Positions 666 to 51,952 of a stretch of DNA of 64,000 bases are shown here, piece after piece. The translations under genes were made by a program, and so were the position numbers. Within the stretch, counting starts at the first letter, position 1. Every line of letters begins with the position of its first letter. This DNA comes from Ginglymostoma cirratum (taxonomy: Eukaryota): positions 19,267,707 to 19,331,706 of the forward strand of contig JAHRHZ010000140.1 in assembly GCA_024137785.1 (NCBI GenBank), in the 5' to 3' direction. The notes under the pieces are model-generated. The model saw nothing but the letters and a program-made list of their open reading frames with translations, was not told the DNA's origin and searched no databases.

Positions 666-878
666 TCAGAAACTTTCAGAATGAATTCTGTACTTCCAAG
701 AAAGGGTCAAAATATTATTCTCCTACGCTTTTTATTTTTCTTTGCTTAAAATAAAGGCTGTGTCTAATAACTGCATTAACAGGGCCTTGAATTTTCCTTA
801 AATTAGCTGTTTTTATAACTAACTACTTCAATTGTAAGTTTTCAGAAACAATTCTTTCCTAACAAAGCTAACGCCTAC

Positions 879-1097
879 CTGGGCATTGAATAAAAGCCCA
901 TTCATTGTTTTTGTCTTTTGGACAAAGATCCGTATCAAGTGTCATTTCTTGGACATTCTTGCCAGCAGATTTCATTGGTCCTCTTGAAGAGCCTTCTACA
1001 CATTGTCCTTTCCCTGTATTTGCAGGATCATTACACCAACCACAACCAGGGTGTTCCAAACACTGTTGACATGTACGAAGTCCAGAACAATTTTGAG
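879..1097 (-). CDS. ATRNL1: ATRNL1 exon, 219 nt (PSI)
   Basis: tctcag|CT CAA AAT TGT...TGC CCA G|gtaggc; QNCSGLRTCQQCLEHPGCGWCNDPANTGKGQCVEGSSRGP...WAFIQCP. Confidence 0.95.
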
Positions 1098-1394
1098 CTG
1101 AGAAAGAAATGAAAAAAACATTATTAAATCTTAATTTAAATAAAAATTCAGAGATATTGCCTTCTTCTCACAAATACAACGTTCAAATTAAACATCCATT
1201 GGATAGAACAAATTGTTAACTCAGCCAGGTGAGAAGTGTAATGTGAAATATTATACAATAAAAGTTTAACAGTGAACAATCTGTGCAATTTTCATATTTT
1301 CTTTAAAACTGACAGTTATCGCAGATCTCAGAGTATGCTTCTCCATTATTATTCAATGATAAAGGTCTACATTTTCCATGTAGTCAGAACTGCC

Positions 1395-1530
1395 CAGTTC
1401 TGATGAAGGGTCACTAGACTCAAAGCATTAATGTTCTCTCTCTCTATAGATGTTGCCCAACCTGCTGAGTTTCTCCAGCACTACAACTTTTTGTTTCAGT
1501 TTTCCAATATCCAGTTTTTTGTTTTATTTT
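1395..1530 (+). mobile_element. Decayed PLE terminal-repeat fragment with degenerate hammerhead core
   Basis: cagttCTGATGAagggtcactagactc(aaag)...cctgctgagtttctccagca; homologous to 6896-6999. Confidence 0.6.
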
Positions 1531-3743
1531 AGAGCACTTCTCAATTTGTCTTCTCTTTGATTATCATCAATTCCATCTGCCTTTGTATTCCTAACGCATT
1601 TAGTTTTCTCTATGGAATTTGTTGGGTTGTTTTTATAAACTCCTCAGTTTAACCTTTCATCCAGGTTGATAAATTTGCAAATGGCAATTAAAGTACACAA
1701 TGATAGCCAACTGGTTTCATAGTTCAAGACTACTGGCAACAGAAACTAACCTATTATTAGGGTCCTCACTTTGTGCCATTTCCAAGAACGTCATCTGAAG
1801 GCTGGAAGCTTAGTTCCATTTTGGCAAGACTCATGACAGGAAAGTATAAATCATTCAGCAATCAACCCATTATAATGCTTTATTACAAAAAGTCAAACAA
1901 AGTTATGCACTTTTAACCTGCCCTTTTTTAAAAAGAAATTCTCGGACAATATGGTATTCTTTTTCTGTACAGGCCTATTTCACTTTAATTTGTCGCCTTC
2001 TAAAACAATTCCCAAAGCAAAAAGCAACAGTTAGAATGTACTCATTGAAGATGCAATCTTTTCCACTGAGCAAGTAAATTAACTCAAATCATCTCCATTC
2101 CCAAATACAATTACGTCTAACGATGATGGAACCAGTACTAAAAAAAAACCAAAAATATTTTGATTTAAATTTAATAATTTAAATATTAAATGTTATTTTA
2201 AAGGCCTCATCCCCTGCCAAGTTTCTCACCAAGTCAGCCTCTTTCAATCATTTCATACTAGACTGAAAATTCAGCAACCATGAGGTCACAAATTAAAACA
2301 CACATTTTGATTCTCTAAAATAATAGGCAGATAGCTGCACAATAAATGTTTGCCACATTTTTATGAAAACGAATTGAACAAAAAAGTATATGGACTCTAC
2401 ATTTTTCTAATTCTTACGTGCTCGAACTCTCAAGGTTATGTGTAAGTTTAGAACTGTCACAATCAAAATTGTTTTAAGTTTCAGGGAAATACAGAAATCT
2501 GAATGAATAGAAATCTACAATGTGCCATTTCTTTGTCACATCACTGTGTCGACATATGACATTTCAACAATATACTCTGTCATTAAGGTATTTATTACAA
2601 ATGATCTATCTTTTGATACAGAGGTTTTAAATATTGATCTTTTCACAAAGAAGCTTCAAATGGAATATTTTTGAAAGGCACTCTCTTTACTGTCTTTCCA
2701 ACTGCAGAGTGAGAATGCTGCAATGGCTCATTTAGCAACTTGCCTGACTCGCATTTAAATTAAACGTTCTAACAAAGGCCATTCAGTTGTCAAATTTGGT
2801 TTTCTACTAGTTTCTTCAAAACTGGTTCTATGCTGTAATCAATAGCCTTTCTACATTTGTTTACCGATTTCTTATAGACAACACACTAAATTATTTATGA
2901 CATGAGTATCAGCTCAATATTTGCCAAAATAAATTAGGAGTGATCATCACCTCAACCTTTGAACAAAAATTAATTCAAACAAAAGGAAAATCAGAATGAT
3001 AATGAAATACACAAGTAAAGTGGCAGACAGTGAACTGAATAGGTAAATAAGCATTCACTCCCTAAATCCCACACTTTTTTCTCCACCTAGTATCTGTTCT
3101 GTATTTTCCAATATTTTCCAGCAACTCTGCCCTCAGTCAATTGACAGAACTCAACGTAGGCAGTAGGCTCTCAACTGCAGCTGGAGAACTGGCCAGACGT
3201 TTGCATCAGCTCCTTTGGGAAAGAACATCAAACTGGCCAGCAGTAGAACGTCCTCAAAATCAAAGAGTCTGGGGTGGAAGTCCAACCCATCATGAGTAGT
3301 GACCAGTCAAAGGCAAACAGCTATTCACTGCTTGGTAGAACTGTTGGGTAAACCCAAGGTCACCAGTGAGTGGCAGTAGGAGGTGCCACTACAGGGTTGA
3401 AGTCACAGGGGATAGGGAGAGGGTCAACAGCAAAGGCAGGGCTCTCAGAAGTTCATTTATGATGCTCAGTCCCTTAATCACAAAATGAACATTGTCCTTA
3501 GTGATTGCCTTTCCAGCTTCATACATGGTCTCTCTCACCCACGGTGGGTCAAGAAAATCCCTAATTGAGCACTGATTGACCACTCAATTGACATTGGGTG
3601 GGATGGTTGTCCACGAGCCTGCATCCTTACTAACCTAATGGGGACAGAAGCAGGAAGGAAAAAGAGATCTAATTAAATTTCCCTGCCACCAAACACATTA
3701 AACTTACCCCATCCCAATTTTGACAGCAGCTTTACTTCAATAC

Positions 3744-6700
3744 TGTTATAATCTGTTTAATGTAAAGTCATCCACGTGGTCATAAATTTAGCTTTACTGA
3801 TTTAGTTGATTTTTCTGATGCCAGCTATAATTTACTAACCTAGAATGATTATGAATTTGTTGAATTGAGAGAGTTTTAGAGTCAGAGGCACCAAAAGGGA
3901 TTGAAAGGTATTAGCTTGCTTTTGATTTAGAAGAATCAAGAAGTGACTTTTTGTTTTTACTAGGAAAGGTCCAAAGTGTGGTTTCAATTCGCAGAATACC
4001 TGGAGGAGATTAAATCCGAGAACAATTTCTCTTGGACAAAGAAGTTAGTTCAGGACAAGTCAGAAAGAGGTTACTGTAGTGCAGGGTTTTAGTTTAAATT
4101 CCAGACCAAAATTTTTAGTTGGAACCACGAATGGGTTATTTGAAGTTAACAAAGTTTAAGCCGTGATGTTCAACATTCCATGGATAGCTGCTCTGACCGC
4201 ATCCAGAGGTCAACACTCAGTGCCATGCAGTGCCACATGCACACTCTCCAAAAGCATCACAACACACTGGCTCAGGGTTGCATCACTCCGCAGTTCCACT
4301 TCATCCTCCGGCTCATTCATCATTCTAGCAATAAACTTTTTCTTGTCTGTTCAGGCATCAAGGCCCACAAGATGCAACAACCCAAAGATACCCATGGCCC
4401 TCTGGAACCTTCCGGTCCTCCCCTTCCTTCTGACTCCATCCCCTCCCCCAACACCCACGCCCCCACCACCTCCTGTCAGGTATTCACCATCCCTCCTAAC
4501 CTTCCGCTCTCCAATGCTAAACGTTCTGTACTCAGCAAAGGCCTCAGCTTTAATCCTCTGCGTCCCCACCTTAACAAATTTCAGACACAACATGATGCTG
4601 AACTCTTCTTCTGCCATCTTCGCCTCCGTGCTCATTTCTTTGGACAAGAGTCCTCTCCCTGTCCACAGACCCTTTCGACCAGTTCCAACACTCTCCCTCC
4701 ACCTGGACCCCTCCCCCTCTGGCCTTTTATCTGCACTTGATCTGTTCATGGAGAACTGTCAGCATGATATTGGTCGCCTCAATTTCTCTGCACCTCTCAC
4801 CAAATCCAACCTACCTCCCTCCGAACTGACTGAACTCCATGCACTCAGATTTAACCCTGACTTTGTTATTAAGCTTGCCAATGAGGGTGGTGCTCTTGTA
4901 GTCTGGCGTACATACCTCTACCTTGCAGAGGCTGAGCGCCAACTCTCCAATACCTCCTCCTCCCCTGGACCATAACTCCACCATGACACATCAGGCCATT
5001 GTATCTACTACAGTAACTGATTTCATTTCATCCTGTGATCTCCCCCACCTCTGCTTCCAAGCTGATAGCCCCCCAGCCCTGCACAGCTCGCTTCTACTTC
5101 CTCCCAAAAATCCACAAACAGGACTGTCCGGGCAGACCCATTGTTTCAGCCTGCTCCCGTCCCACAGACTCATCTCTTCCTACCTTGACTCAGTAATCTC
5201 TCCCCAGTCCAATCTTTGCCCACATACATCCACGATTCCTCCGACGCCTTACGCCAGGTTCAAAACTTCCAGTTTGTCAGTTCCAGCCAACTCCTCTTTA
5301 CCATGGACGTGCAATCCCTTTACATGTCTATTCCTCACCTGGAGGGTCTTGGGGCTCTCCGTTTCTTCCTGGAACAAAGACCTGAACCATCACAACGCAC
5401 CACCACCCTCCTCCACCTGGCCGAGCTTGTCCTCACCCTCAACAACTTCTCTTTTAACTTGTCTCATTTTCTTCAGGTGGCCATAGGTACCCACATGGGC
5501 TCCGGTTATGCCTATCTGTTTGTAAGGTACGTGGAACATTCCTTGTTCCAGTCCTATTCCAGCCCCCACCCACAACTCTTTCTCCAATACATCAATGATA
5601 TCATTAATGCTGCTTCCCTCTCTCAACCGTAATTGGAAAACTTCATCAATTTCCACTCCAATTTCCACGCTGCCATCACTGTCACCTGGTCTCTCTCTGA
5701 CTCCTCCCTTCCCTTCCTCGAAATTTCTGTTTTGATTTATGGGGATAAACTGGCCACTAATATCCACCACAAACCCACAGACTCCCACAGCTACCTGGAC
5801 TATACATCCTCACACCCTATTTTCTGTAAAGACTCCATCCCGTTCTCTCAGTTCCTCTGTCTCCGTCGTATATGTCCAAATGAAGCCAACTTCAACAAGG
5901 GAGCCTCCGAAATGTCCACCTTCTTCCTCAACCGAGGATTCCCTAGCTCAGTGTTTGACACGGCCCCCAACTGGATCTGATCCATCTCCCGCACGTCTGC
6001 CCGCACCCCTTCTCCTCCCTCCCTCAACAGCAATAGGGTTCCTCTTGTCCTTTCCCATCATCCCACCAGCATCCACATCAGACGCCATTTCCGCCACCTC
6101 CAGTAAGATGTCACCACCAGACACCTATTCCCTTCCCCTCCCCTCCCCTCCCTTGTCCGCCTTTTGCAGGGACTGTTCCCTCTGGGACACCCTGATCCAC
6201 ACTTCCTTTACCCCCAACACCTCCCCACAGCCCTACGGCACTTTCCCCTGTACCCAGTGAAGATGCAACACCTGCCCATTTACCTCTCCCCTCCCCAGTA
6301 TCCAAGGGCCCAAACATACCTTCCAGGTGAAGCAACGCTTCACATGCACTTCCCAGAATCTCGTCTATTGCATTCGCTGCTGACGAAATTGGTCTCCTCT
6401 ACATTGGGAAAATGAAGTGTAGACGAGGTGACCACTTGGCAGAACATCTACGTTCTACTCGCAAAAAGACCCTGAACTACCGTTGCCTGCCACTTTAACG
6501 CACCACCCTGTTTCCTGAACAACATCTGTCTCTGGGTTGCTGCAGTGTTCTAGCAAAGCTCAAGGCAAGCTAGGAGAACCTCAATTTCCGCTTGGGGACC
6601 CTGCAGCCTTCCGGACTCAATATGGAGTTCAATAATTTTAGGGCCTAAACTCTCCCATGTCCCACCCCCCACCCACACACCAAGCCTTGTTACCACGTAG

Positions 6701-7386
6701 CCTGCCATTACAAACTACCTGTTATTAGTCACTAATAGTCCCCATGAAAACTATTCATCCTCCCAACCTGATCGTTATCAACTCTGTCTGTCTCAATGTT
6801 CTTCTCTCTCTTTTGGCTCTATCCTATCGTTTACTCCCTTCCCCATCCCCCTCCCCTTTTTTCTGCATATACAATGACGTTTTCCCAGCCACTATCAGTT
6901 CTGAGGAAGGGTCAGTGGACCCAAAACGTTAACTCTGTTTTTTTCCTTCTCACATGCTGATAGACCTGCTGAACTTTTCTAGCATCTTTGTTTTTGTTCC
7001 AAAGTTTAAGCTCAGTTGTGTGAATGATCAAGGAAGAGACTATTCACATCTCAAGATCAGAAACTGAAAAAGAAACAGTTATCTTAAACTTTTGGATGTG
7101 ATAAAGAAGGGAATTTGCTGATATTTGAACAGTGTAAAGTAATGGTATTGGGAACAGTTGGGATTTTATTTCAAATTGTGTTATACACTATGTAAATTGA
7201 TGAGTTTATCCTATTTATCTTCATTTCTTGTTTACTAAACTCCTGTTTTATTGTTGAAAGCAAATCTGCAGCATTGCGTGCTATTGTTTCAGTGAAAGAC
7301 CACTATGTTAAATTGAAATAAAATGATCTATCAAATCAGATATCAGTCTGGGACTGACTTGTCCAGTAGTACCATCAACTGGGACA
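3744..7386 (+). mobile_element. Putative solo LTR-like repeat interrupted by the PLE at 4162-6999
   Basis: Joined flanks (4130-4161 plus 7012-7385) align by eye with 12990-13366, which ends ...atcataaca; tgttata at 3744 is a plausible TG start. Boundaries approximate. Confidence 0.45.
4162..6999 (+). mobile_element. Penelope-like retroelement, near full length and frameshifted (RT plus GIY-YIG endonuclease)
   Basis: ORF pieces: VIKLANEGGALVVW (KPADKGGA-like), LFTMDVQSLYMSIPH, YIND (YIDD-like), HKPTDSHSYLDYTSSHP..CKDSIPFSQFLCLRRIC, and GIY-YIG region FTCTSQNLVYCIRC...LYIG. 12-bp TSD caaagtttaagc at 4150-4161 and 7000-7011. Confidence 0.9.
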
Positions 7387-9007: not shown

Positions 9008-9643
9008 CTGTAAAAGAAGAACATGTCTCTTACTCAGAATTAAACTAAGCAATAAAATTACAGCACTTTTCAGTCAGAATATCAATTGTTTACAATTTGT
9101 TCCCAATGTGTGGCTATCACGCAGAAAAATTGGAACAAGAGGAATCCATTTGGCCCTTCAAGGCCATTCCACAATTCATTATGATCAAGTTTGATCATCC
9201 AACTCAGTAACCTGCTCGCACTTTCACCCTTTCCCCAGCAATGGCGTTAGCCCCATGAAATGCATCTATTAAATTTTTTTGGCTTCAACTGCTTTCTGTG
9301 GCAAAGAATTCCATAAACTCACTACTCATTGGGTGAAGAAATTTCTCCTCATTTAAGTTCTAAATGGGCAACTTTCTATTCTTAGACTGTGTCCCCTGGT
9401 TCAGGAACATCCTTCCTGCGCTTATCCTGTCTAGCCCCGTTTGAATTTTACAGGACTCCAGAAGACTCTTCTCCCCTCATTCTTCTAAACTGCAATGTAT
9501 ATAGGTTCTAACCAACCCAGTCTCTCATCATACATCAGTCTTGCCATCACAGGAATCAACCTGGTAGACATTCAATGCACTCCCTCCATAGCCAGAACAT
9601 TTTTCCTCAGATAAGGAGACCAAAACTGTACACAACACTCCAG

Positions 9644-9868
9644 GAACAAAAACAAAGTTGCTGGAAAAGCTCAGCAGGCCTGGCAGCTTCTGTAAAGGAA
9701 AAAAACAGTGTTAGCGTTTTGGGTCCGGTGAATTCTGAGGAAGGGTCACCGGATCCGAAACGTTAACTCTGTTTTTTTCCTTCACAGATGTTGCCAGACC
9801 TGTTGAGCTTTTCCAGCAACTTGGTTTTAGTTCCTGATTTACAGCATCCACAGTTCTTTTGGTTTTTA
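9644..9868 (+). mobile_element. Non-autonomous inverted-repeat element made of PLE termini
   Basis: About 87-nt inverted arm, direct arm and about 30-nt tail; TSD acaacactccag/acaatactccag (9632-9643, 9869-9880); same family as the 3' end of 4162-6999. Confidence 0.85.
9730..9769 (+). ncRNA. Minimal type-I hammerhead ribozyme motif (GUU site)
   Basis: gaauu CUGAGGA A GGGUC-ACCG-GAUCC GAAA CG UU aacuc; core intact, stem I has one mismatch, stem III reduced to the ACGU palindrome. Confidence 0.65.
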
Positions 9869-9940
9869 ACAATACTCCAGATGTGGTTTCATCAAGGTTT
9901 TGGACAATCACAGCAAGACATCTCTGCTTTTGTACTCAAA

Positions 9941-10287: not shown

Positions 10288-10385
10288 GAGATAAAACGTT
10301 GTGGAGCTGGATGAACACAGCAGGCCAAGCAGCATCAGAGGAGCAGGAAAGTTGACGTTTCGGGTACAGAACCTTCTTCAGAAAA
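10288..10385 (-). mobile_element. PLE terminal fragment with hammerhead-like core (10354-10382)
   Basis: Minus strand: ttCTGAAGAaggttctgtacccGAAACGTCaactttcctgctcctctgatgctgcttggcctgctgtgttcatccagctc. Confidence 0.75.
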
Positions 10386-10454
10386 TAGATACTTTATATA
10401 TAGGAAGAAGTTAGAAGTACTTTATATAGAATATATATTTTATATGCCTGTATA

Positions 10455-10460
10455 TATAAA

Positions 10461-10503
<43 letters not shown>

Positions 10504-10905: not shown

Positions 10906-11265
10906 CACATAACTATGGCTCAGGGCCTTCAGGGTATAGCATTCTCCAGAATGAGGATAATCAACGTAATAGAATGCATGCCACAATATTCACAGTTGAT
11001 ACAGAAGCAATATATTGACATGCACAGAATGCATACAATACTTTAGAGATTGGGCTAGTTAGTGGCACTTTTGGTGCCAATAAGTAACTGCCAGTTGTGT
11101 CTCAAATGGCGGCCCTTCCAGAAGGCCATCCAAAAGTTGAGGCAGTCAGTAATGCAAACAAGAGAGCCTTCTCTCATGGATGCCATCAAATCAATTGCCT
11201 CTTTGGTTCAAGTGAAGGGATCATTATACAGCAAAATCCTGCAACTTCGGCTGCTCCAGTAGTCA

Positions 11266-12931
11266 GAGATAACAAGGTGTAGAGCTGGATGAACACAGCA
11301 GGCCAGGCAGCATCAGAAGAGCAGGAAAGCTGACATTTCAGGTCTGGATCCTTCTTCAGAAATGGGGCAGGGGAAGGGGTCTCTGAAATAAATAGAGAGG
11401 GGGAGGCGATGATGGAAGGTGGATAAAGGAGCTGATAGGTGGAGAAAAGATGGGCAGATCAAGGGGGCGGGGTGGAGCCAGTAAAGGTGAGTGTAGGTAG
11501 GGAGTTGGGATGGGGGTTGGTCAGTTGGGAAGGAGGGAAGATGGACAGGTCAAGGAGGCAGGGATGAGGCTCGTAGGTAGGAAGTGGGGGTGGAGGTTGG
11601 TCAATGGATAGTTGGGAGAAAAGACGGACAGGTCAAGGAGGCAGGGACGAGCTGGGCTGGTCTTGGGATGAGGTAGGGGGTGGGGAGATTTTGAAGCTTG
11701 TGAAGTCAACATCGAGACCATTAGGCTGTAGGGTTCCCAAGCGAATTGAGGTGCTGTTCCTGCAGTCTTTGGCATCGTTGTGATACTGGAGGAGACCTAT
11801 GATGGACATGTCGTCTAAGGAGTGGGAGGGGGAGTTGAAGTGGTTTGCGACTGGGAGGTGCAGTCGTTTGTCACGAACCAAGCGTAGGTGCTCCACAAAG
11901 CGGTCTCCAAGCCTTCGCTTGGTTTCCCTGATGTAGAGGAGATCACATCGGGAACAGCAGATACAATATACCACGTTAACACATGTGCAGGTCAACATCT
12001 GTTTAAGGTGGAAGGTTTTCTTAGGGCCTGGGATGGGGATGAGGCGGGGAGGGGGGTGTAGGGGCAGGTGTAGCACTTCCTGTGGTTGCAGGGAAAAGTG
12101 CCAGGGGTGGTGGGGCTGGAGGGCAGTGTGGAGCAGACAAGGGAGTCACAGAGAGAGCAGTCCCTCCGGAAGGCAGATAAGGGTGGGGAGGGAAAAATGT
12201 CCTTGGTGGTGGGGTCAGATTGCAGGTGGCAGAAGTGGCGGAGGATGATGCGTTGAATCCCGAGGTTGGTGGGGTGATATGCGAGGATGAGGGGGATTCT
12301 GGTCATTGTTGTTATTGTGGGAAGGAGATGTGAAGGATGAGTTGCGGGAAACACAAGAGATTTGGTCAAGGGCATGGAACACCTACGCTCGGTTCATGAC
12401 AAACGACTGCACCTCCCAGTCGCAAACCACTTCAACTCCCCCTCCCACTCCTTGGATGACATGTCCATCCTAGGCCTTCTCCAGTGTCACAACGACACCA
12501 ATCGAAGGCTGCAGGAACAGCACCTCATATTTGACTTGGGAACTCTACAGCCCCATGGTCTCAATGTGGGGTTCACAAGCTTCAAAATCTCCCCACCCCG
12601 ACCTCAACCCAAGACTAGCCCAGCTCATCCGCACCTCCTTGACCTGTCCGTCTTTTCTCCCACACAACTAACTAACCCCCCATCCCAACTCCCTACCTGC
12701 ACTCACCTTTACTGGCTCCATCCCCACCCTCTTGACCTGCCCGTCTTTTCTCCACCTAACAGCTCCGTTATTCACCTTCCATCGTCGCCTCCCCCTCTCT
12801 CTATTTTTTTCAGAGTCCCCTTCCCTTCCCCCATTTCTGAAGAAGGGTCCAGATCTGAAACGTCAGCTTTCCTGCTCCTCTGATGCTGCCTGGCCTGCTG
12901 CGTTCAATCCAGCTCGACACCTTGTTCTCTC
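11266..12931. mobile_element. Inverted pair of PLE 3' portions (minus arm 11266-12372, plus arm 12375-12931)
   Basis: GIY-YIG remnants on both strands (LTCTCVNVVYCICCSRCDLLYIRETKRRLGDRFVEH; EHLRSVHDKRLHLPVANHFNS). Outer termini are reverse complements; hammerhead-like core CTGAAGAagggtccagatctGAAACGTC at 12837-12864. Confidence 0.88.
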
Positions 12932-14542: not shown

Positions 14543-14731
14543 TTTACATAATAAAACAAAGAATTGCATGTGATGGAGATCTGAAACAAAAACAGAAATG
14601 TTTGGAGAAACTCTGCAGGTCTGTGAGGGGAAAGCAGAGTTAATGTTTCAAGTCTGGTGATTCTTCAATGGAACTCATTTCTCCAGCAATTTTAGTTCTC
14701 TGGGATCCACAGTTCTTTGCTTTATTATGTA
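14543..14731. mobile_element. Older, internally deleted PLE-derived inverted-repeat element
   Basis: Ends tacataataaaacaaagaattg ... cagttctttgctttattatgta are imperfect reverse complements; interior matches the PLE terminal repeat. Confidence 0.6.
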
Positions 14732-15644
14732 ATTATTGCCTTCATTATATCCCGCACAGTTTGGTATTTCCAGAAAAATAAAATCTCCTGCATTGATTTA
14801 ACATTTTTGTCAACCATAGAAGGTGAAGCATTTTACCACAATGACATCATTTTGAAAGATTAGTTCTTGCTGCAATGTGGACAACTTAAATGCTATTTTT
14901 AATTGTCACAAAACCATAGGATTTAGATGCTACCTCTCCCAATGCTGTGCAGAGAAAACAGTGAAAATTTATAGCAAGAATGTTTTATCATTAGAATGCA
15001 AATTTGGGGTAGCCCATCAGTACAAATATCCTTATTTTTTTCTCCAACTAAAAAATGCTGGATTCTAATAATCACATTCTTATTGTTTCAGAATTGTACT
15101 TAAATCTTTACCTTTTCCAGAAACATTGATGTTATGTAATTGGATGCCATTAGCAAAGTTCATGAGTTTGAATGGATAAATCACATTTTCTCATTCTTGA
15201 CCATTCTTGAATTTAAATATCTATCAAAGTTCGGGATTGGTAATTGCAACATTAGTGCATAAATGAATGAAAATATTTCCAAATATAGGAGCCAGCATAT
15301 TCACTAGAGCACATACAGCAAAATAATTAGTTGAGTAGACAATTTGACCAGTATACCAAAACAAATCTAGAGTTTCAGATTTTATTCTTAACACATTTAG
15401 TTATGCAAAAATATCTTGCCCATTTCCCTTACTTATTATTTTTCCTCTATATAAAGTACTTTTAACTTCTTCCTATATATAAAGTATCTAAATTAGAACA
15501 AGCTTACATTTATCAAGTGAAAGAAACAAAAATCAAGTATTGAAAATGGTTCTAGCTGCTTTAACTCTACAGCACGTCTGCCCTCTAGAGTACAAAATGA
15601 AGATTAAAATATTAGACAAACACAGAAAGCACGTGATTAATTGA

Positions 15645-16582
15645 AAGTACAATACAGGATGCTGGAAACATGAAATATAAACAGAAAATGCTGAAGAATC
15701 TAAACAGGATTGGCAGCAATTGTGGAGAGGGAAACAGAGTTAACATAGATTCCAAAGGCTCTTCTTCAGAACAACTCTGAAGTTCCAAAGATGCCCTTTG
15801 GACTGAGAGTCATAGAGATGTACAGCACAGAAACAGACCCTTTGGTCCAACTCATCCATGCCAACCAGATATCCGAAATTAATCTAGTCCCATTTTCCAG
15901 CATTTGGCCCATTTCCCTCTAAACCCTTCCTATTCAAAACACATCTCAAACCTATGCCTTCTCGTATTGGACTTCCCCACCTTGAGGAAAAGACCTTGTC
16001 TATTTACCCTATTCATGCCCCTCACAATTTTATAAACCTCTATAAGGTCACTCCTCAGCCTCCGATGCTCCCGGCAAAATAGCCCCAGCCTATTCAGCCC
16101 CTCCCTATAGCTCAAACTTCTCCAACCCTGGCAACATCCTTGTAAATCTTTCTGAAGCCTTTCAAGTTTCACAACATCCTTCCTATAGCAGGGAGATCAG
16201 AACTGAATGCATTATCCAAAAGTGGCCGAAGCAATGTCCTGTACAGCCACAACATGACCTTCCAACTCCTATTCTCAATGCAACGACCAATAAAGGCAAG
16301 CATTCCAAACGTCTTCTTTACTATCCTACCTACCTGCGAGTCCACTTTGAAGAAACTATGAACTTGCACTCCATGGTCTCTTTGTTCAGCAACATTCCCC
16401 AGGTCCTGCCCTGATTTGCCTTTCCAAAATGCAGCACCTCACACTTATCTAAATTACACTCCATCTACCACTTCTCGGCCTATTGGCCCATTGACCCATC
16501 TGATCTTGAAGCATTAACTGTTTTTCTTTCCACAGATGCTACCAGACCTATTGAGTTTCTCCAGTATTTTCTGTATTTATTA
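15645..16582. mobile_element. Old PLE-derived inverted-repeat element split by a CR1 insertion
   Basis: Left arm 15645-15804 and right arm 16500-16582 are diverged reverse complements (aaacagagttaac / ttaactgtttttc). Confidence 0.55.
15805..16497 (-). mobile_element. CR1/HER1 LINE 3' end
   Basis: ORFs LSYREGLNRLGLF..RRLRSDLIEVYKI and MLAFIGRCIENRSWKVMLWLYRTL; tail ...catctctatgactc. Confidence 0.85.
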
Positions 16583-17051
16583 CAGTAAATACATGACTTC
16601 AGGCACATTACAATTCAAAGACGTGTTTCATAAGAGCACCTTGTGAAGAAACCTCAAGACAGGTTGCGAGAGTCAAGTTGTCACATTTTAGAAATGTAAG
16701 AATATAAAAAGTAACCATGGAACATTGAAAACTAACCCTGACACAAATTTAGTATAGTCATCTCAAATGATAGACAATTTTACATCATGAAAGTATATAT
16801 CACAGAACAAGGTGTGAACAAAGTATGTGAACAAGAGCAAAACATTGGCGACCAAACAGAATGCAAGGTGGTGGTGAGGAAGGGGGTTAGAAGGATAGAC
16901 TAGAAGATCCAGGCTTGAAGGAGACTTTTGAGAGAGGAACCAAGTCACAAAAACTGACAGATGCTTGTACAATGCCCCGTAGTATGTACTGAAAAAAAGT
17001 TTGCCTCTGAAGCTGAAAGCAGAATGAATAAAAACAAGACTCAAAAGGCAG

Positions 17052-17616
17052 AGATAAAAGGTACTGCAGATGCTGGAGAATCCGAGATAACAAGCATGGG
17101 GCTGGATGAANNNNNNNNNNNNNNNNNNNNNNNNNNNNNNNNNNNNNNNNNNNNNNNNNNNNNNNNNNNNNNNNNNNNNNNNNNNNNNNNNNNNNNNNNN
17201 NNNNNNNNNNNNNNNNNNNNNNNNNNNNNNNNNNNNNNNNNNNNNNNNNNNNNNNNNNNNNNNNNNNNNNNNNNNNNNNNNNNNNNNNNNNNNNNNNNNN
17301 NNNNNNNNNNNNNNNNNNNNNNNNNNNNNNNNNNNNNNNNNNNNNNNNNNNNNNNNNNNNNNNNNNNNNNNNNNNNNNNNNNNNNNNNNNNNNNNNNNNN
17401 NNNNNNNNNNNNNNNNNNNNNNNNNNNNNNNNNNNNNNNNNNNNNNNNNNNNNNNNNNNNNNNNNNNNNNNNNNNNNNNNNNNNNNNNNNNNNNNNNNNN
17501 NNNNNNNNNNCCTAAACCCTTCATCAGATGAAGGGTTTAGGCCCGAAACGTCAAGTTTTCCTGCTCCTATGTGCTGCTTGACCTGCTGTATTCATCCAGC
17601 CCCATGCTTGTTATCT
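17052..17616 (-). mobile_element. PLE-derived hairpin element spanning a 400-N gap
   Basis: Perfect 16-bp TSD aagactcaaaaggcag (17036-17051, 17617-17632); nearly identical to 51750-51952. Confidence 0.85.
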
Positions 17617-17849
17617 AAGACTCAAAAGGCAGTCAGACTTGTAAATATCACAAGCAGCCTTTCACAACTGAGGCTGGACACCATACAAGTTCAAGCTAAA
17701 AAACATTTATGCATTTAGTATCAAAAATTATTCACATCACGCTACATCCACCTCCCTCCAATCTAAAGTCATTGATGCCATCCCTAGGTCCTGCAGAAAT
17801 TTGACTTATCAGCCTGATTATGTTCTTAATGCCTCTAGAGAAGGTTGAT

Positions 17850-20400: not shown

Positions 20401-20812
20401 AAATAAAAACTATAAGAATTGTGGATGTAGTAAATCAGGAACAAAAATAGAAGTTGCTGTAAAGGTTCAGCAGGTCTGGCAGCATCTGTAAAGAAAAATC
20501 AGAGTTAACATTTTGGGGCCAGTGACCCTTCCTCGGAACTGATGGCAGCTGGGAAAATGTCAGTTTAAATGCAGCACGGGGCGGGGGGGAGCGGGGGATG
20601 GGTGGAGGTGGTGGGGAAGTAAACAATAGGTTGGGATAGAGCCTGAAGAGGGAGAACAGTTGGACAAACAAAGGAACAATCTGGCAAGGAGGATGAATAG
20701 CTGTTAATGGAGACTTTTAATGGCTAACAATAGGTTGTGTGTAATAGCAGGTTATGTAATAACTAGGCCTGTTGTATGGGGTAGGGGGCCAGGACACAGG
20801 AGAGATGTGGGA
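20401..20812 (-). mobile_element. PLE 3' fragment (same family as 4162-6999), including tail
   Basis: Reverse complement aligns with 6650-6999 and with the tail at 9837-9868. Confidence 0.75.
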
Positions 20813-22125
20813 ATAGCATTGTATCAGACAGATGTAACAAAAAGCCCCCAAAAATGCCAAAGATATAAAGTATGGGGAACTAGCATACATGTGAAAGCTA
20901 ACCCCATGACTGTGAACGATACTGTCAAGGGATTACATAAATAAAAATGAGAGCAAGGCAGGCTGGTGTGATGGAGCTAGTTGGAGAACACAGATGATAA
21001 AGATGCAGAGTGATCAATTATGTCAAATACCAAAGAAGGATTAAGGAGACTGCAAAGAAATAGTGCAATGGTTACACTCACACAATATATCATTTATAAC
21101 TTCAATGAAGATGGTCTTGGTGCTGCAGGAAAATAGAAACAGGATTGAAAAGAATGGAAAGAGAGAGCTTTAAAACAAGAAGCGTGGAGTTGGTCATAAC
21201 AACAGATCACGTTAGGCCAGGACAATTCAAAGATGGAATAAGAGCAGAGCAAGGAAAATCCATTTCAAGGGAGGAAACTAGTGGAAGACTTAAAAGTTGG
21301 GGCACCAGATCTGAAAGGTAGAGAGCAATTAAAATGGCAGACAGCATTGGGTCAGGTAAATACACCTACTGAATACAAAGTCAGTAAGCAGGCAAAGCCA
21401 CAAAGGAAGTGTCTTAGAGAAGACCAACAGCAGGAGGACTGGGAAGAAAAAAAGAGTAGGCATGTAATGACAGAGGGTCTGGGTAAGGAGATGGCTAAAT
21501 CTGTTTAGCAGACATTGATCTTTGAAAGTATAAAAACAAGTTCCTTATTGGTGCCAAAAATGGAAAATGGGAGTGCACAAGAATTTGAAGCAAACAAGGA
21601 AGTTTACAAATTTCTACTTCAAGAAACTTCGTTTTTTTTAAAAAAAACTGTAAACCAGGAATAGAGTAGCAACAAATATTTTGTACAGATTTTCTTTTTC
21701 ATGCTGACATTTTCAAGTTCTGTTCCGCTGATATTCAAAACTGGACAGTGCAATCTACCATCTGACCAACACAAAAAGCTAATTGTGTGTGAGCAGGAAT
21801 GCAGACACAGAAAATAACTGCTCATTTGGCGCATAACACGTAAACATGATTTACTATGTAAACTGTTCAGATACAATTCAACAAATGTAACTCAAGTGTG
21901 AGCAACCTAGAGTGAAAATTTCAATTGTTTTGTTATATACAGTCAAGTCCCAATTAAGATCTTCATACAGAAATTTACAATTTTATCATCAATATCAAAT
22001 GATAGATTGCCTGTTCTGGTTTCACAACCTTAAAAACGCCCCATTTCTTTTTTAACTATTTTCATTTTTTTTAAAAAAAGAAATCATGCTGAACACTTCT
22101 GTATTGAGGTAAGTTAAAAACTTAC

Positions 22126-22339
22126 CAACTGGTTTTTCACAAACTAGACCACTTGCCATTTCAGTGCACGCATAAGCCTTCAATCCAACAATTTCAGCTC
22201 TTACTAGATATGCACAGAAACCAGAGTCATTGGGTTCACCAGGGAGCCACTGCAGAGTTGTGTTTGTAAAAGGTGACATATCTTCCCAGCCCCAGTAGGA
22301 GATGTTAATTTTGCGCAATCCAACCCAAGGTGATATTTT
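22126..22339 (-). CDS. ATRNL1: ATRNL1 exon, 214 nt (C-type lectin, C-terminal part)
   Basis: gatag|AAA ATA TCA CCT TGG...CCA GTT G|gtaagt; KISPWVGLRKINISYWGWEDMSPFTNTTLQWLPGEPNDSGFCAYL...CEKPV. Confidence 0.96.
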
Positions 22340-30290: not shown

Positions 30291-31367
30291 TGTGTATGTG
30301 TTTGAGAGTGGTGTGTGTTATGAGAGAGTGGTGCACGCACTAGTCTTCATGCGTGTCTCACTTCTTTCTGTATGTGTGGGGGTCAGTGTCTGTCATGGCA
30401 AGGAAACCTCGATGACTGGATAGATGTATAAATAAGAAAGATATGGAGGTTTATGGGCCAGCAGTAGGCATGTGGGACTAGTTTAGTTTGGGATTATGCT
30501 CAGCCTGGGCTGGTTGGACTGAAGGGTCTGTTTCAGGCTGCACGACTGTGACTCTATGACTGGAAACCTCCCTACAACTGCAGCTGTCATCTGCTGTTAG
30601 AGCCAATCATATCATATACAAATATCTTCAGACTGGATCGTGGTTTCCAAACTTGTTATGGATTCAGCTTTATCTGGTTCTTTCCCTCCAATCTTACCAC
30701 CATGGATCACCCAAACAAGAATTGATAATTTTTTCTTTCAAAAATATACTTTCTTCATAAAGAATATCTTTGTTGTAGCAGCCCATGACTAAGTTGACAA
30801 GACAGCCACTTGGGATTTTTTGGCGTACACAGGATGGCCAAAAGGAATTGACAGTTATGTACAGCAAATTCTCACAGCTATACTTATAGTCTCGATACAG
30901 GTGTATTAAATAAGACGAGAATCTCCAATGGAAGGAACATTAGAGAAGTTAATCAGGTTTCTGAAACCAGGCAGCTCTACAGTTATAAGCATTTTACTGA
31001 GGAACATTTTTGTAAGGCCTAATTTAGCCACAGTCCCAAGTTTGTTACTTAATAAAAAGTAGAAGGAAAAGTCTGATCCTACAGTATTTCGATCTGTTTA
31101 GGTAACCGTAGAATTAGAAGGGCAAGTGATAAATTAGTGTGAAAAGGTTAGAGGCCCAATGCATCATTAGGGACGATAAAGCAATAAGTGGTGTAAACAC
31201 AACCTTCAAAAAAGCCATTAGCCAGTTTGTAAAAAGAGGTCATGACTGAGAGAGATAAACAATTGAAACTTAAGTGCAGACAAAGATAATCCAAACAAAT
31301 TCTTACATCCAAAGACAGGGTAAAATATCACACAACACCAGGTTATAGTCCAACAGGTTTATTTGAA

Positions 31368-31406
31368 GATACAAGCTTTCAGAGTCTCCCTCCTTCTTCA
31401 GGTCTC
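31368..31406 (-). ncRNA. Hammerhead-like motif with AGCU stem III palindrome (CUU site)
   Basis: Minus strand: gagac CUGAAGA A GGAG-GGAGA-CUCU GAAA GC UU guauc; some pairs are decayed. Confidence 0.5.
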
Positions 31407-33419
31407 AGTGAGAGAGGTGGCATCAGGCAGAGAATTTATCAGCAAAAGATCAAAGGGTCATAGAGATGATGTGATTGCGTTGAACAAACCTGAGATGGCT
31501 GTTAAATCTTTAATCAGTTAGAAAGTATTAATATGCAAATTTCAGAATTTCTTTCAAGTCACTGCTCCAAGATAACTAAAGGTTTAATTAGTTCCCTCAG
31601 CATACCAGAGGTGACATCCTGGGTCAGACCATGCACTTAAGGTGGAGGCCTTGTTTAGGATCTGGCAATGTATTAACTTGGAGTCCGACTGGTTTATTTC
31701 CAAAGTAGGAATTTATAAAATGCCACACTGACTGTCTACCAATTGTGTGGTTTTTGAACAAAATAGAATGCATCTGAATTAAAATTCTGCAAATGCATAT
31801 TCACCCTATAGATTTGTGTGTGTGTGCATGAGACAGAGTTTGTGTGTGAGAGTGTGTGCGCGCACATGTATGGCGTGGTGGGGTCACCTATATCGTGACA
31901 TGAACCCAAGATCCCAGTTGAGCCATTCTCATGGGTACCGAGCTTGGCTATCAGCCTCTGGTCAGAAATTCTGAGTTGTTGTGTATCCCGAAGTCTGCCT
32001 TGGAGGTCGTTTCCCCGAAGATCTGAGGCCGAATGTCCCTGACTGCTGAAATGTTCCCCAACTCGGAGGGAACATTCATGTCTGGTGATTGTTACACGGT
32101 GTCCATTCATCCACTGTCATAGCGTCTGCATGATTTCACCAATATATTATCCCTCAGGGCATCCTTACCTGCAGCATATGAGATAGACAACATTGGCCAA
32201 GTCACATGAGTATCTGCCGTGCATGTGGTGGGCGGTGTTCCCATCTGTGATGCTAGTGTCCATGTCGAAGATCTGACATGTCTTGCAGAGGTAGACATGA
32301 TAGGGTCGTGGTCGACGTTGTTCTGAAGGCTGGGTAGTTTTTTTTGGTGGTTGTTTGAAGGCGAGAAGCGGAGGTGTAGGGGAGATCTTGGCGAGATGCT
32401 AATTGTCATTGATAATGTTTTGAAGGCCGNNNNNNNNNNNNNNNNNNNNNNNNNNNNNNNNNNNNNNNNNNNNNNNNNNNNNNNNNNNNNNNNNNNNNNN
32501 NNNNNNNNNNNNNNNNNNNNNNNNNNNNNNNNNNNNNNNNNNNNNNNNNNNNNNNNNNNNNNNNNNNNNNNNNNNNNNNNNNNNNNNNNNNNNNNNNNNN
32601 NNNNNNNNNNNNNNNNNNNNNNNNNNNNNNNNNNNNNNNNNNNNNNNNNNNNNNNNNNNNNNNNNNNNNNNNNNNNNNNNNNNNNNNNNNNNNNNNNNNN
32701 NNNNNNNNNNNNNNNNNNNNNNNNNNNNNNNNNNNNNNNNNNNNNNNNNNNNNNNNNNNNNNNNNNNNNNNNNNNNNNNNNNNNNNNNNNNNNNNNNNNN
32801 NNNNNNNNNNNNNNNNNNNNNNNNNNNNNCGGCCTTCAAAACATTATCAATGACAATTAGCATCTCGCCAAGATCTTCCCTATGTCTCCACTTCGCGCCT
32901 TCAAACAACCACCAAACCTTAAACTGACCATTGTTTGCAGCAAACTACCCAGCCTTCTGGACAAGATTGACCACAACACTATATAACCCTGTCATGGCTA
33001 CCTCTGCAAGACATGTCAGATCTTCGACATGGATACTATCACCACACATGGGAACACCACCCACCACATGCATGGCAGATACTTATGTGACTCAGCCAAC
33101 ATTGCCTATCTCGTACGCTGCAGGTAAGGATGCCCTGAGGCATGGTATATTGGCAAAACCATGCAGACGCTACGACAATGGATGAATGGACACCGTGTAA
33201 CAATCACCAGACATGAATGTTCCCTCCGAGTGGGGAACACTTCAGTAGTCAAGGACATTAGGCCTCAGATCTTCCGGGAAACGATCCCCAAGACAGGCTT
33301 CGGGATACACAACGATGCAGAGGTGCTAAGCAGAGCTGACAGCCAAGTTCGGTACCCATGAGAACGGCCTCAATCAGGATCTTGGGCTCATGTCGCACTA
33401 CAGGTGACCTCACCCACAC

Positions 33420-33454
<35 letters not shown>

Positions 33455-33543
33455 CCTCTCTCAAGCGCGTACGCACGCGCACACACACTGACTCAGCCTC
33501 TCTTTCTCTCTCTCTCACACACACAAACACACACACACACACA
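33420..33543. repeat. (CA)n/(CT)n microsatellites within the PLE 3' UTR
   Basis: Direct inspection; a shorter (TG)n counterpart lies at 31815-31860 in the other arm. Confidence 0.9.
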
Positions 33544-34869
33544 GATCTATGGGGTGAATATGTATTTGTAGATAGATTCTATTCTGTTCAAAAACCATAC
33601 AATTGTTAGACAGTCACTGTGGCATTTTATAAACTTCTATTTTGGAAATAAAACCAGTCTGACTCCAAGTTAATACATTGCCAGATTCTAAACAAGGCCT
33701 CCACCTAAAATGCATTGCCTGACCAGGATGTCACCTCTGGTATGCTGAGGGAACTAATTAAACCTTTAGTTAACTTGGAGCAGTGACTTGAACAAAATTC
33801 TAAAATTTGCATGTTAATACTTTCTATCTGATTAAAGATTTAACAGCCATCTCAGGTTTTTTCAACACATTCGCATTAGTTCTATGACCCTTTGATCTTT
33901 TGCTGATAAATTCTCTGCCTGATGCCACCTCTCTCACTGAGATCTGAAGGAAGAGGGAGACTCTGAAAGCTTGCATCTTCAAATAAACCTGTTGGACTGT
34001 AACCTGGTGTCGTGTGATTTTTGACCTTGTTCTCCCCAATCCAACGCCGGTACCTCCACATCATTACATCTAAAGATCAAGGGAAGAGCAACAAAGGCAT
34101 ATTACAAAATAAAGAATGAAGATGTGGCTGTCCCCTAGCTGTTTGTGGAATCTGAACAAGCTTTATTTAATGGCTCGGTAGAGTAGTAAAGTGATTGCAT
34201 TTCACCCTCATCAGGGGAGTTCAAACAGATGCTTTTTATTAAGATAATTAATAATGGAAACTGTTCAGAGTGAACATAGTAAAATTTTACTTAAACACGA
34301 AACTTCAGTTTAAAATCCACTTACACATGTAAATAGCAGGAATCGTAAACTGCAGTTCTAAGTCAGAGGGACTGTTTTTTGATCTCTCAGGCTAATGAGA
34401 GAGAGTTGTTCACAATTTTTCAGCTGTATCACAGTTACTTTACATTAGAGCTGATTTCAACCACTTCATAACAATTAGTAGAAATTAACATCCTTAGCCG
34501 AATTCGGAAGCTATTTTAGTGAAAAGCAACTATTTAGGTTATTGGTGAATAATGCATTACAGCTGGCAAATTTCTGGGAAGGAATAAAACTGTCAGATGC
34601 GTTCTGAGATCCCAAAGACAGATACTGGAGTTATCTTGTAAACATCATGAGATTATGGAAGGACGTAGGACTATCCATAGATGGCTGTCCATCATTGATC
34701 GTGTGTTTACTGGATTGAATGTATAGATTAGGGGATTGTGGCTAACAATGATATCAATGTTGCATGTAATTATTCTAACGCAAAGGGTATAAAAATGGTC
34801 TATTTCGCCGGGGAACTCAGAGCTTCATTGCCCTCCAATCTGAGCTGTATATTAAGGCGGCAACTTCGA

Positions 34870-37221: not shown

Positions 37222-37403
37222 CTGAACTGTATATTTGTGTAGCTCATCTAGAACAAATTCAACTTCTTTCGACGTGGTAAGAGAGGCAAGATTGCCACTC
37301 AGATTGTAGCAATAAAGTTTTGCGTTATCATAGTTTTCTCGACTTGTGTTGATCCGGAGGCAGACATCTCCAACATGACTCCAACCTTCTCCACAAAGAT
37401 GAG
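37222..37403 (-). CDS. ATRNL1: ATRNL1 exon, 182 nt (C-type lectin, N-terminal part)
   Basis: tttcag|CT CAT CTT TGT...GTT CAG|gtattt; HLCGEGWSHVGDVCLRINTSRENYDNAKLYCYNLSGNLASLTTSKEVEFVLDELHKYTVQ. Confidence 0.95.
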
Positions 37404-47082: not shown

Positions 47083-47677
47083 AGATAGTAGGAACTGCAG
47101 ATGCTGGAGAATCTAAGTTAACAAGGTTAACAAGGTTATCTAAGTTAACTAAGTAAAAACCAAGTACACGAGAAACTCAGATAACAAGGTGTAGAGGTGG
47201 ATGAACACAGCAGGCCAAGCAGCATCAGAGGAGCAGGAAGTCTGNNNNNNNNNNNNNNNNNNNNNNNNNNNNNNNNNNNNNNNNNNNNNNNNNNNNNNNN
47301 NNNNNNNNNNNNNNNNNNNNNNNNNNNNNNNNNNNNNNNNNNNNNNNNNNNNNNNNNNNNNNNNNNNNNNNNNNNNNNNNNNNNNNNNNNNNNNNNNNNN
47401 NNNNNNNNNNNNNNNNNNNNNNNNNNNNNNNNNNNNNNNNNNNNNNNNNNNNNNNNNNNNNNNNNNNNNNNNNNNNNNNNNNNNNNNNNNNNNNNNNNNN
47501 NNNNNNNNNNNNNNNNNNNNNNNNNNNNNNNNNNNNNNNNNNNNNNNNNNNNNNNNNNNNNNNNNNNNNNNNNNNNNNNNNNNNNNNNNNNNNNNNNNNN
47601 NNNNNNNNNNNNNNNNNNNNNNNNNNNNNNNNNNNNNNNNNNNNCTGCTGTGTTCATCCACCTCTACACCTTGTTAT
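47083..47677 (-). mobile_element. PLE-derived hairpin element spanning a 400-N gap, inserted in an older PLE remnant
   Basis: Tail agatagtaggaactgcagatgctggagaatct plus mirrored arms; probable TSD ctgagtttctc(c/g)tgt at 47063 and 47678. Confidence 0.7.
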
Positions 47678-47721
47678 CTGAGTTTCTCGTGTACTTGGTT
47701 TTTACTTTAGGTATGGTAAAA

Positions 47722-51749: not shown

Positions 51750-51952
51750 AGATAAAAAGTACTGCAGATGCTGGAGAATCCGAGATAACAAGCATGGGGC
51801 TAGATGAACACAGCAGGTCAAGCAGCATCATAGGAGCAGGAAACCTTGACGTTTCGGGCCTAAACCCTTCATCAGAAGGGTCTAGGCCCAAAACGTCAAG
51901 TTTTCCTGCTCGACCTGCTGTGTTCATCCAGCCCCATGCTTGTTATCTCGTA
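51750..51952 (-). mobile_element. Complete about 200-bp PLE-derived hairpin element
   Basis: Tail plus arm 51781-51872 mirrored by 51875-51950; TSD ttctggaatattgt at 51731 and 51953. Confidence 0.88.
51844..51879 (-). ncRNA. Minimal type-I hammerhead ribozyme motif (GUC site), sense to the ATRNL1 pre-mRNA
   Basis: Minus strand: ccuu CUGAUGA A GGGU-UUAG-GCCC GAAA CG UC aagg; 4-bp stem I, 4-bp stem II, all core nucleotides present. Confidence 0.7.

What the first reader, a model, noticed from the sequence alone, without database searches (positions are those of the whole stretch)
9644..9868. Family of about 200-bp TSD-flanked hairpin retroelements built only from PLE termini
Seen: four insertions (9644-9868, 17052-17616, 47083-47677, 51750-51952) share one plan: an inverted arm, a hammerhead-core centre, a direct arm, and a 30-nt tail on one side only. 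Each has a 12-16-bp TSD and no coding sequence. They come from two PLE families (GAAACGTT type and GAAACGTC type), and older decayed versions occur at 14543 and 15645. The 17052 and 51750 copies share diagnostic bases (caagcatgggg, cctaaacccttcatcaga). Inference: either a self-propagating non-autonomous, ribozyme-bearing, MITE-like retroelement, or the stereotyped minimal product of PLE integration with inversion. In both cases the truncation/inversion point sits almost exactly at the hammerhead.
Basis: partly seen in the sequence, partly recalled or inferred. Interest (0 to 1): 0.75.

Follow-up and report, generated by a model that had tools for sequence, protein, structure and literature searches.

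The report
Minimal fold-back Penelope retroelement insertions, shark
The small hairpin-shaped insertions are real and are the shortest form of the already described inverted-copy-plus-tail layout of Penelope-like retrotransposons; their mirror half is likely built anew at each insertion, and their sharp cut-off just before the hammerhead motif likely marks where the element's RNA begins.

Summary
The hairpins are real. Two of the four (9644-9868, 51750-51952) are fully visible: head-to-head Penelope-like (PLE) 3' ends, a 33-35-nt tail on one side, and a 12-14-bp TSD. The other two contain 400-N runs, so their size is inferred. The plan is the published PLE layout (inverted 5'-truncated copy, optional tail, TSD), and the window also holds it at kilobase scale (31314-34066). 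Junctions differ in all three visible hairpins and in four more recovered from database gene models. The listed opposite-strand read joints also all differ. Solo copies stop at the same point. This favours a stereotyped insertion product over a self-copying MITE-like family. In a relative's DNA contigs, 315 end 3 nt upstream of the hammerhead core and run into heterogeneous flanks; the next listed 5'-side site has 79. That point is the start of helix I, not the cleavage site. Most likely both cut target strands prime cDNA near the RNA's 5' end, both run off, and the ends join (inferred). The scan noted this before in two other shark genomes. No genome was held, so the clade test was not possible.

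The parts
9644..9868 (+). Hairpin E1, GAAACGTT family: inverted arm 9644-9731 (5' end at +11 from hammerhead C3), direct arm from about 9731-9733 (-2 to -4), core CTGAGGA at 9735, tail 9834-9868
9632..9643 (+). Left TSD of E1 (right copy 9869-9880; 12 bp, 1 mismatch)
17052..17616 (-). Hairpin E2, GAAACGTC family (caagcatgggg subfamily): tail 17052-17084, left arm broken by 400 N, centre 17511-17541 (arms end at about 0 and +2), right arm to 17616; 16-bp TSD 17036-17051 / 17617-17632
47083..47679 (-). Complex fold-back E3: tail, slipped repeats (47117-47150), inverted copy of 28 nt of right flank (47151-47178), arm, 400 N, short right arm; inserted in an older PLE end; TSD 47063-47077 / 47678-47692 (1 mismatch)
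51750..51952 (-). Hairpin E4, same subfamily as E2: tail 51750-51782, tail arm to 51877 (-2), non-tail arm from +5, 3-nt TTC/GAA overlap at the junction; 14-bp TSD 51731-51744 / 51953-51966
10288..10384 (-). Solo GAAACGTC-family arm without tail or inversion, 5' end at -3 from C3
11266..12931 (.). Long head-to-head PLE insertion, arms 1105 and 557 bp, with GIY-YIG coding remnants; junction far from the hammerhead; no recognisable tail or TSD
4163..6999 (+). 2.8-kb 5'-truncated PLE (decayed RT and GIY-YIG ORF), parent family of E1; no inversion, no tail, exact 12-bp TSD
31314..34066 (.). Kilobase-scale hairpin of a third PLE family (GAAAGCTT core): arms over 1.1 kb, 400 N at the centre, tail on the right only, 13-bp TSD with 1 mismatch
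14543..14736 (-). Old decayed fold-back: left arm reaching about -4, short right arm, tail-like sequence on both sides
15645..15790 (-). Old solo arm with tail and a 6-bp mini fold-back just 5' of the core
20404..20804 (-). GAAACGTT-family copy with tail that continues at least 250 nt upstream of the hammerhead
1385..1531 (+). Old solo arm with tail and a 9-bp mini fold-back 5' of the core

Best explanation
The hairpins are head-to-head pairs of Penelope-like retrotransposon ends flanked by target duplications, and each is likely a one-off, dead-end insertion made when both cut strands of the target prime reverse transcription near the start of the element's RNA. Steps: (1) The GIY-YIG endonuclease makes a 12-16-nt staggered cut. 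The TSDs are shown here; cutting and extension of both strands was shown in vitro for the anole element (PMC11167929). (2) Each 3' end primes cDNA at one of two internal start sites about 33 nt apart, which gives a tail or no tail at that end. Two sites were shown for the anole element; their use here is inferred from matching geometry (+93/+126 and +99/+134 from the core). (3) When priming occurs at the copy of that site nearest the RNA's 5' end, the cDNA runs off after about 95-135 nt, at -2 to -4 from the hammerhead core. The hotspot is shown; that it is the RNA 5' end (transcription start or processing site) is inferred. (4) The two cDNA ends are trimmed by a few bases and joined through 0-3 nt of microhomology. 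Different junctions are shown; the joining route is inferred. Priming at the far 3' copy gives the long versions, and priming on one strand only gives solo arms.
For: Layout in print: inverted 5'-truncated copy, 30-40-bp tail often at one end only, and assembly trouble (PMC8557442); inverted pLTR, 31-bp tail, 8-10-bp TSD and junction palindromes (PMC3846280). Continuum in the window: the same plan at 2.7 kb or more (31314-34066), an asymmetric 1.7-kb hairpin, a solo arm and a long uninverted copy. Junctions differ in 3 of 3 visible hairpins: -2 to -4/+11, -2/+5, about 0/+2. Four of 11 database gene-model hits carry head-to-head arms, and all four junctions differ. All 6 opposite-strand joints among the 15 joints shown differ. 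Hotspot independent of inversion: 315 contigs of a related species end at -3 and continue in sequence of 0.36 agreement, against 79 at the next listed 5'-side place. The solo at 10288 ends at the same base. Tail pattern among six scorable fold-backs: one side 4, both sides 1, neither 1, as expected if each end chooses its start site independently (small n). The anole template needs ORF +172, beyond the +111-118 start, a stretch that an inserted arm would lack. Folding puts the core inside a long stem.
Against: No genome was held, so there is no copy census and no tree. The 5' end of the RNA was not seen: no pile of read starts or ends in two raw RNA runs (table 6; library design may hide it). 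The -3 site is also where the reference turns purine-rich and subfamilies diverge. One run (X22) shows 520 reads loose at the same base that are a long divergent copy, so part of the 315 may be of that kind. Only 6 loose ends per run and 15 of 206 joints were shown. No symmetric near-centre joint was among those shown, so the share of hairpins versus solos is unmeasured. E3 has arms 63/63 identical, including 28 nt of flank, which points to DNA-templated copying (or an assembly artefact) and not to two independent cDNAs. In a rotifer, pLTR sequences alone sufficed for mobilisation in trans (PMC3846280), which weakens 'dead end'. The gene-model evidence is protein-level, from an unnamed species, and may be spliced.
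Confidence: 0.68

Rival explanations
1. Same products, other route: a single cDNA runs to the hammerhead border, folds back on itself and self-primes, so the second arm is a DNA copy of the first and is then cut or joined to the target.
For: The E4 junction is a 3-bp stem with a 4-nt loop, as snap-back would leave. E3's left arm is an exact copy of the right junction including 28 nt of flank. Old copies at 1400 and 15769 have 6-9-bp mini fold-backs just 5' of the core. Self-priming was proposed for PLE junction palindromes (PMC3846280).
Against: The E2 junction has a 1-nt loop, which cannot form by snap-back. The untailed arm ends exactly where untailed solo and long copies end, which two RT start sites explain without a further step. 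Tails on both sides or neither side occur. Read joints include very unequal arms (+73/-3, +44/-530).
Confidence: 0.17
2. A non-autonomous hairpin (or arm-only) family that is transcribed and re-inserted by PLE protein in trans, MITE-like or retrozyme-like; best candidate is the 17052/51750 subfamily.
For: That subfamily is abundant (5,605 and 5,894 loose-end reads) and no long member of it lies in the window. Its frame from the core ATG is interrupted. The E2 and E4 junctions differ by only a 3-nt indel. pLTR-only mobilisation in trans is reported (PMC3846280), and non-autonomous PLE families exist in algae (PMC8557442).
Against: Junction heterogeneity. No arm-specific change shared by E2 and E4 is visible (most of E2's tail arm lies in the N run). 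The plan recurs in three families and at all lengths. The core is predicted to be buried and helix I is clipped. There are no tandem hammerheads as in retrozymes. The RNA needed downstream of the tail in the anole system is missing.
Confidence: 0.11
3. The fold-backs are assembly artefacts at scaffold gaps.
For: All three 400-N runs lie inside inverted repeats. Arms of E2 (26/26) and E3 (63/63) are perfectly identical.
Against: E1 and E4 have no gap, diverged arms (88% and 95%) and TSDs. E2 has a 16-bp TSD. The arms beside the third gap differ at 6 of 87 bases. Opposite-strand joints occur in raw reads and contigs. This can apply to details of E3 at most.
Confidence: 0.04

Closest known systems
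Complex insertions of canonical EN+ Penelope-like elements (Penelope/Poseidon type): inverted pLTR + tail + TSD (PMC8557442 Fig. 2 legend; PMC3846280; PMC2377424)
   Same: Head-to-head inverted 5'-truncated copy, 30-40-nt tail usually at one end, TSD, palindromic junction, hammerhead in the terminal repeat, gaps in short-read assemblies.
   Different: Here the whole body is absent, both arms are only about 90-135 nt, and 5' ends pile up within a few bases of the start of helix I. The passages read describe variable truncation and do not report this hotspot.
Poseidon element of Anolis carolinensis (PAc; PMC11167929)
   Same: Hammerhead followed about 120 nt later by the tail end; two RT start sites delimiting the tail; both target strands cut and extended; no RNA reads ending at the cleavage site.
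   Different: In vitro work on one element; fold-back products are not described in the parts read. The ORF starts at stem II in PAc, which is not shown for the shark families.
Minimal hammerheads of metazoan PLEs (PMC4209133)
   Same: CUGANGA core, extra base before helix II, G-C closing pair, palindromic AC/GU in place of helix III, short helix I. Pairs on opposite strands 100-700 bp apart were noted in Schistosoma and ascribed to truncated PLEs. In D. virilis the intron end maps to the 5' end of helix I.
   Different: Here the two cores overlap at one junction, only one is complete, helix I is clipped and the motif is predicted to be buried in a 90-bp stem.
Retrozymes (PMC6155905 passages) and MITEs (recalled)
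   Same: Short, non-coding, hammerhead-bearing (retrozymes); inverted repeats and TSD (MITEs).
   Different: No direct-repeat hammerheads to release a circle. The inverted arms are retroelement 3' ends joined at a variable centre, not transposase-binding TIRs around a fixed interior. TSD length varies (12-16).

Membership tests
EN+ Penelope-like element insertion | Parent element encodes RT followed by C-terminal GIY-YIG endonuclease | tested here: met
   Arms match the 3' ends of 4163-6999 and 11266-12931. Those regions match 894-927-aa proteins with RVT_1 then GIY-YIG (RVT_1 below its cut-off in all three, GIY-YIG at or above cut-off in two of three).
EN+ Penelope-like element insertion | Inverted 5'-truncated copy adjacent to the 5' end (head-to-head) | tested here: met
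   E1, E4, E2 centre, 11266-12931, 31314-34066
EN+ Penelope-like element insertion | Optional 30-40-bp tail at one end | tested here: met
   33 nt (E2, E4) and 35 nt (E1); tailed and untailed loose ends in reads and contigs
EN+ Penelope-like element insertion | Target-site duplication | tested here: met
   12-16 bp at E1, E2, E4, 4163, 31314; offset at E3; none at 11266, 10288, 14543, 15645 (with null)
EN+ Penelope-like element insertion | Minimal hammerhead motif in the terminal repeat | tested here: met
   Core, helix II and palindromic AC/GU read from the sequence against the description in PMC4209133; no Rfam hit
Poseidon clade specifically | RT phylogeny; no Zn-finger-like linker between RT and EN | not tested
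   No tree was built; the assignment rests on geometry shared with PAc and is a lead
Active minimal hammerhead ribozyme | Self-cleavage after GUH, as a dimer or with protein help | not testable with these tools
   Predicted folds bury the core; no read-end pile at the site, which is weak
Non-autonomous MITE-like or retrozyme-like family | Many copies of one fixed structure with the same junction | tested here: not met
   3 of 3 window junctions, 4 of 4 gene-model junctions and 6 of 6 listed opposite-strand joints differ; small samples, no genome census
Non-autonomous MITE-like or retrozyme-like family | Short copies form their own clade | not testable with these tools
   No genome held
Retrozyme | Hammerheads in direct repeats releasing a circular RNA | tested here: not met
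   Cores are head-to-head and overlapping; circular RNA itself not tested

The most novel reading that the evidence does not exclude
The 17052/51750 subfamily is a non-autonomous, arm-only Penelope parasite. Each arm of about 125 nt carries its own RNA start at the hammerhead border and its own RT start sites. It is transcribed outward from inserted copies and re-inserted in trans by PLE protein, with the hairpin rebuilt by two-ended priming at every round, so that junctions vary while the family still propagates without any long member.
Probability: 0.12. Interest if true: 0.62.

Novelty: new variant of a known kind. Interest (0 to 1): 0.3.

Why it matters
How PLEs make inverted repeats and one-sided tails is still an open mechanistic question (stated as such in PMC8557442). 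If shark genomes hold many minimal fold-backs with a fixed run-off point, their junctions, tail combinations and arm identities form a ready natural data set to decide between two-ended priming and snap-back, and to locate the 5' end of the PLE RNA. Practically, these hairpins can be mistaken for MITEs or microRNA precursors (Rfam's weak match at 51839-51906) and they coincide with assembly gaps. As a new class of element the case is weak.

Tried and rejected
Whole-genome census: no genome held. Rfam at E up to 1: 5 weak matches, none a hammerhead, all far below gathering scores. Pfam on six PLE ORF fragments of the window: no family; family identity came from homologues instead. Test that the arms are the ORF N-terminus: the frame is open for 30 codons in the 11266 copy, but two searches returned only 11 short proteins, ten chimeric gene models and one unrelated repeat protein (P0034), and no full-length PLE protein: inconclusive. 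Hammerhead cleavage as the cause of truncation: rejected, because arms keep 25-30 nt upstream of the site; one read joint lies at +25. A splice acceptor at -2 fits the GAAACGTT family (CAG before TTCTGA) but not the GAAACGTC family. Initiator-like motifs at -6..0 occur in both, but the same bases are helix I, so their conservation does not separate the readings. Expression: no RNA holder listed. Reads lay equally on both strands, which does not show a hairpin transcript. Eulor/UCON link: nothing relevant in the passages of PMC5753468. Sequence and place look-ups in earlier findings: empty. The GenBank-format supplement of PMC11167929 could not be read and its two PDF supplements gave almost no text; they may bear on where anole copies end.

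Full report
Setting. The window is repeat-rich intron sequence of a gene with PSI and C-type-lectin exons ('attractin family' is my recalled label). The best named relatives of its retroelement proteins are from sharks and rays (whale-shark P0012 is 75-81% identical over the 11657-12321 region). Penelope-like elements are reported as expanded in whale-shark introns (10.1101/443036, two passages). No whole genome was held.

Observation. E1 (9644-9868) and E4 (51750-51952) are complete hairpins with fold z-scores of -17.5 and -19.8, tails of 35 and 33 nt on one side and TSDs of 12 bp (one mismatch) and 14 bp. E2 has a 16-bp TSD. Random flank pairs gave an exact repeat of 11 or more in 2 of 287 trials. 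E2 and E3 each contain exactly 400 N, as does the centre of a third, much larger inverted repeat. I read these as fixed-size assembly gaps (inference). E2 would be 215 bp if it resembles E4. E3's size and core cannot be seen. It carries slipped repeats and an exact inverted copy of 28 nt of its right flank, with arms 63/63 identical. The two 'older versions' differ from the plan: 14543 has tail-like sequence on both sides, 15645 is a solo arm, and neither has a TSD above chance.

Identity. The arms are the last 90-100 nt of PLEs that also occur in long form in the window. These are 4163-6999 (2.8 kb, 12-bp TSD, no tail, no inversion), 20404-20804, the head-to-head 11266-12931 (arms 1105 and 557 bp) and 31314-34066 (arms over 1.1 kb, tail on one side, 13-bp TSD). 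The long copies match proteins with RT followed by GIY-YIG. The centre is a minimal hammerhead by motif (description in PMC4209133). Rfam does not detect it.

Breakpoints. Numbered from the C of CTGA, tail-bearing arms start at -2 to -4 (E1), -2 (E4) and about 0 (E2). Their partners start at +11, +5 and +2. The solo at 10288 starts at -3. For an outside test I laid four public runs on the long arm 11240-12370 at 80% likeness. In X4 (DNA contigs of a related species; 85,147 records laid, 10,175 only in part) the six loose ends shown are four at the 3' end (316, 882, 446, 299 contigs), one at -3 (315 contigs, agreement 0.36, T-rich) and one at -166 (79). Low agreement means the contigs leave into different flanks, so most are likely solo arms. 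In raw RNA reads (X21) depth falls from 38,190 and 18,869 over the terminal two full bins to 3,747 in the bin holding the border, against 2,206-4,790 in the six best ORF bins. Against this: depth also tracks divergence; the -3 site borders a purine-rich, subfamily-variable stretch; 520 reads of run X22 loose at the same base are a long divergent copy; and 2,413 loose ends and 191 joints were not shown. The six opposite-strand joints among the 15 shown are +73/-3, +65/+17, +56/+25, +44/-530, +42/-5 and -794/-851 (offsets): all different, two at the hotspot, and none a symmetric short hairpin. No pile of molecule starts or ends was found. Separately, 4 of 11 proteins found with a 30-40-residue translation of the arm are gene models that read through a head-to-head junction. 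These align to -3/0, -2/-3, +15/+6 and +62/-3. Only one of the ten related hits extends beyond -3. These are protein-level, from an unnamed source species and possibly spliced.

Mechanism. For the anole Poseidon element, protein cuts and extends both target strands. RT starts at two internal sites that delimit the tail, the template must extend to ORF +172, and hammerhead cleavage is not needed (PMC11167929). The shark ends have the same geometry. I infer that both strands prime, each choosing a start site, and that priming at the copy nearest the RNA's 5' end gives cDNAs that run off at the start of helix I and are joined by short microhomology. The tail pattern among six scorable fold-backs (four one-sided, one two-sided, one with none) fits independent choice but is a small sample. 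The run-off point is 28-30 nt upstream of the cleavage site, so ribozyme cleavage does not set it. Whether it is a transcription start or a processing site is open: an initiator-like motif is there in both families and an acceptor-like CAG in one, and in D. virilis the intron ends at the 5' end of helix I (PMC4209133). Snap-back self-priming remains a rival, favoured by E4's junction, E3's flank copy and PMC3846280. A self-propagating family is disfavoured by junction variety, by solos and long forms, and by burial of the core. It is not excluded for the abundant E2/E4 subfamily, for which no long member was seen, and pLTR-only mobilisation in trans has been reported (PMC3846280).

Comparison with what is known. 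PMC8557442 describes the inverted 5'-truncated copy, the tail often at one end only and the assembly problems. PMC3846280 adds TSDs, junction palindromes and solo pLTRs, and notes that the pLTR and tail hold the first 12-22 codons. PMC4209133 notes opposite-strand hammerhead pairs 100-700 bp apart. Eight library searches listed no paper whose title or abstract start describes body-less PLE hairpins in sharks or a truncation hotspot at helix I. Most subscription journals, Dfam and Repbase are outside that library. What I saw: PMC11167929, parts 1-2 of 4 plus two near-empty supplement PDFs (its GenBank file was unreadable); PMC4209133, abstract and parts 1-2 of 4; PMC8557442, PMC3846280, PMC2377424, PMC6155905, PMC5753468, PMC8969392 and 10.1101/443036, passages only. 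Two earlier notes of this scan on other shark genomes (e1-7789271, e1-7858806) reached the same reading. They were seen after I had recorded mine and are not independent evidence.

Verdict. A real feature; the shortest form of a known PLE insertion layout, with a sharp 5' hotspot that I did not find in print and that could make the integration mechanism testable. Best explanation 0.68, snap-back 0.17, non-autonomous family 0.11, artefact 0.04. Interest 0.30.

Noticed in passing
window 47117-47178: Inside E3, slipped repeats of the arm end followed by an exact reverse-complement copy of 28 nt of the right flank: a possible snapshot of template switching onto the already joined other end, or an assembly artefact.
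   Followed up: partly
window 31314-34066: Kilobase-scale fold-back of a third PLE family (GAAAGCTT core) with one-sided tail, 13-bp TSD, GIY-YIG remnants and an N run at the centre; a direct copy with tail lies at 55197-55372.
   Followed up: partly
window 10385-10500: AT-rich imperfect repeat and (TA)n tract directly at the 5' end of the solo PLE arm.
   Followed up: no
window 1385-1400 and 15769-15790: Old PLE arms with 6-9-bp mini fold-backs immediately 5' of the hammerhead core.
   Followed up: partly
window 46995-47081: E3 is inserted into the 3' end of an older PLE copy; E4 sits in a repeat that recurs at 44632 and 63093.
   Followed up: no
window 868-1167, 22052-22339, 37204-37488 (minus strand): Exons with PSI and C-type-lectin domains, likely an attractin-family gene (recalled label) hosting all these insertions in its introns.
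   Followed up: partly
window 17111-17510, 32430-32829, 47245-47644: All three N runs are exactly 400 long and all lie inside PLE inverted repeats.
   Followed up: yes
proteins P0027-P0037: Database gene models frequently absorb the open frame of this PLE end as a false exon.
   Followed up: partly
window 11267-11356 (minus strand): The frame starting in the hammerhead core is open for 30 codons in this subfamily and interrupted in the 17052/51750 subfamily; whether it is the real ORF start is unresolved.
   Followed up: partly
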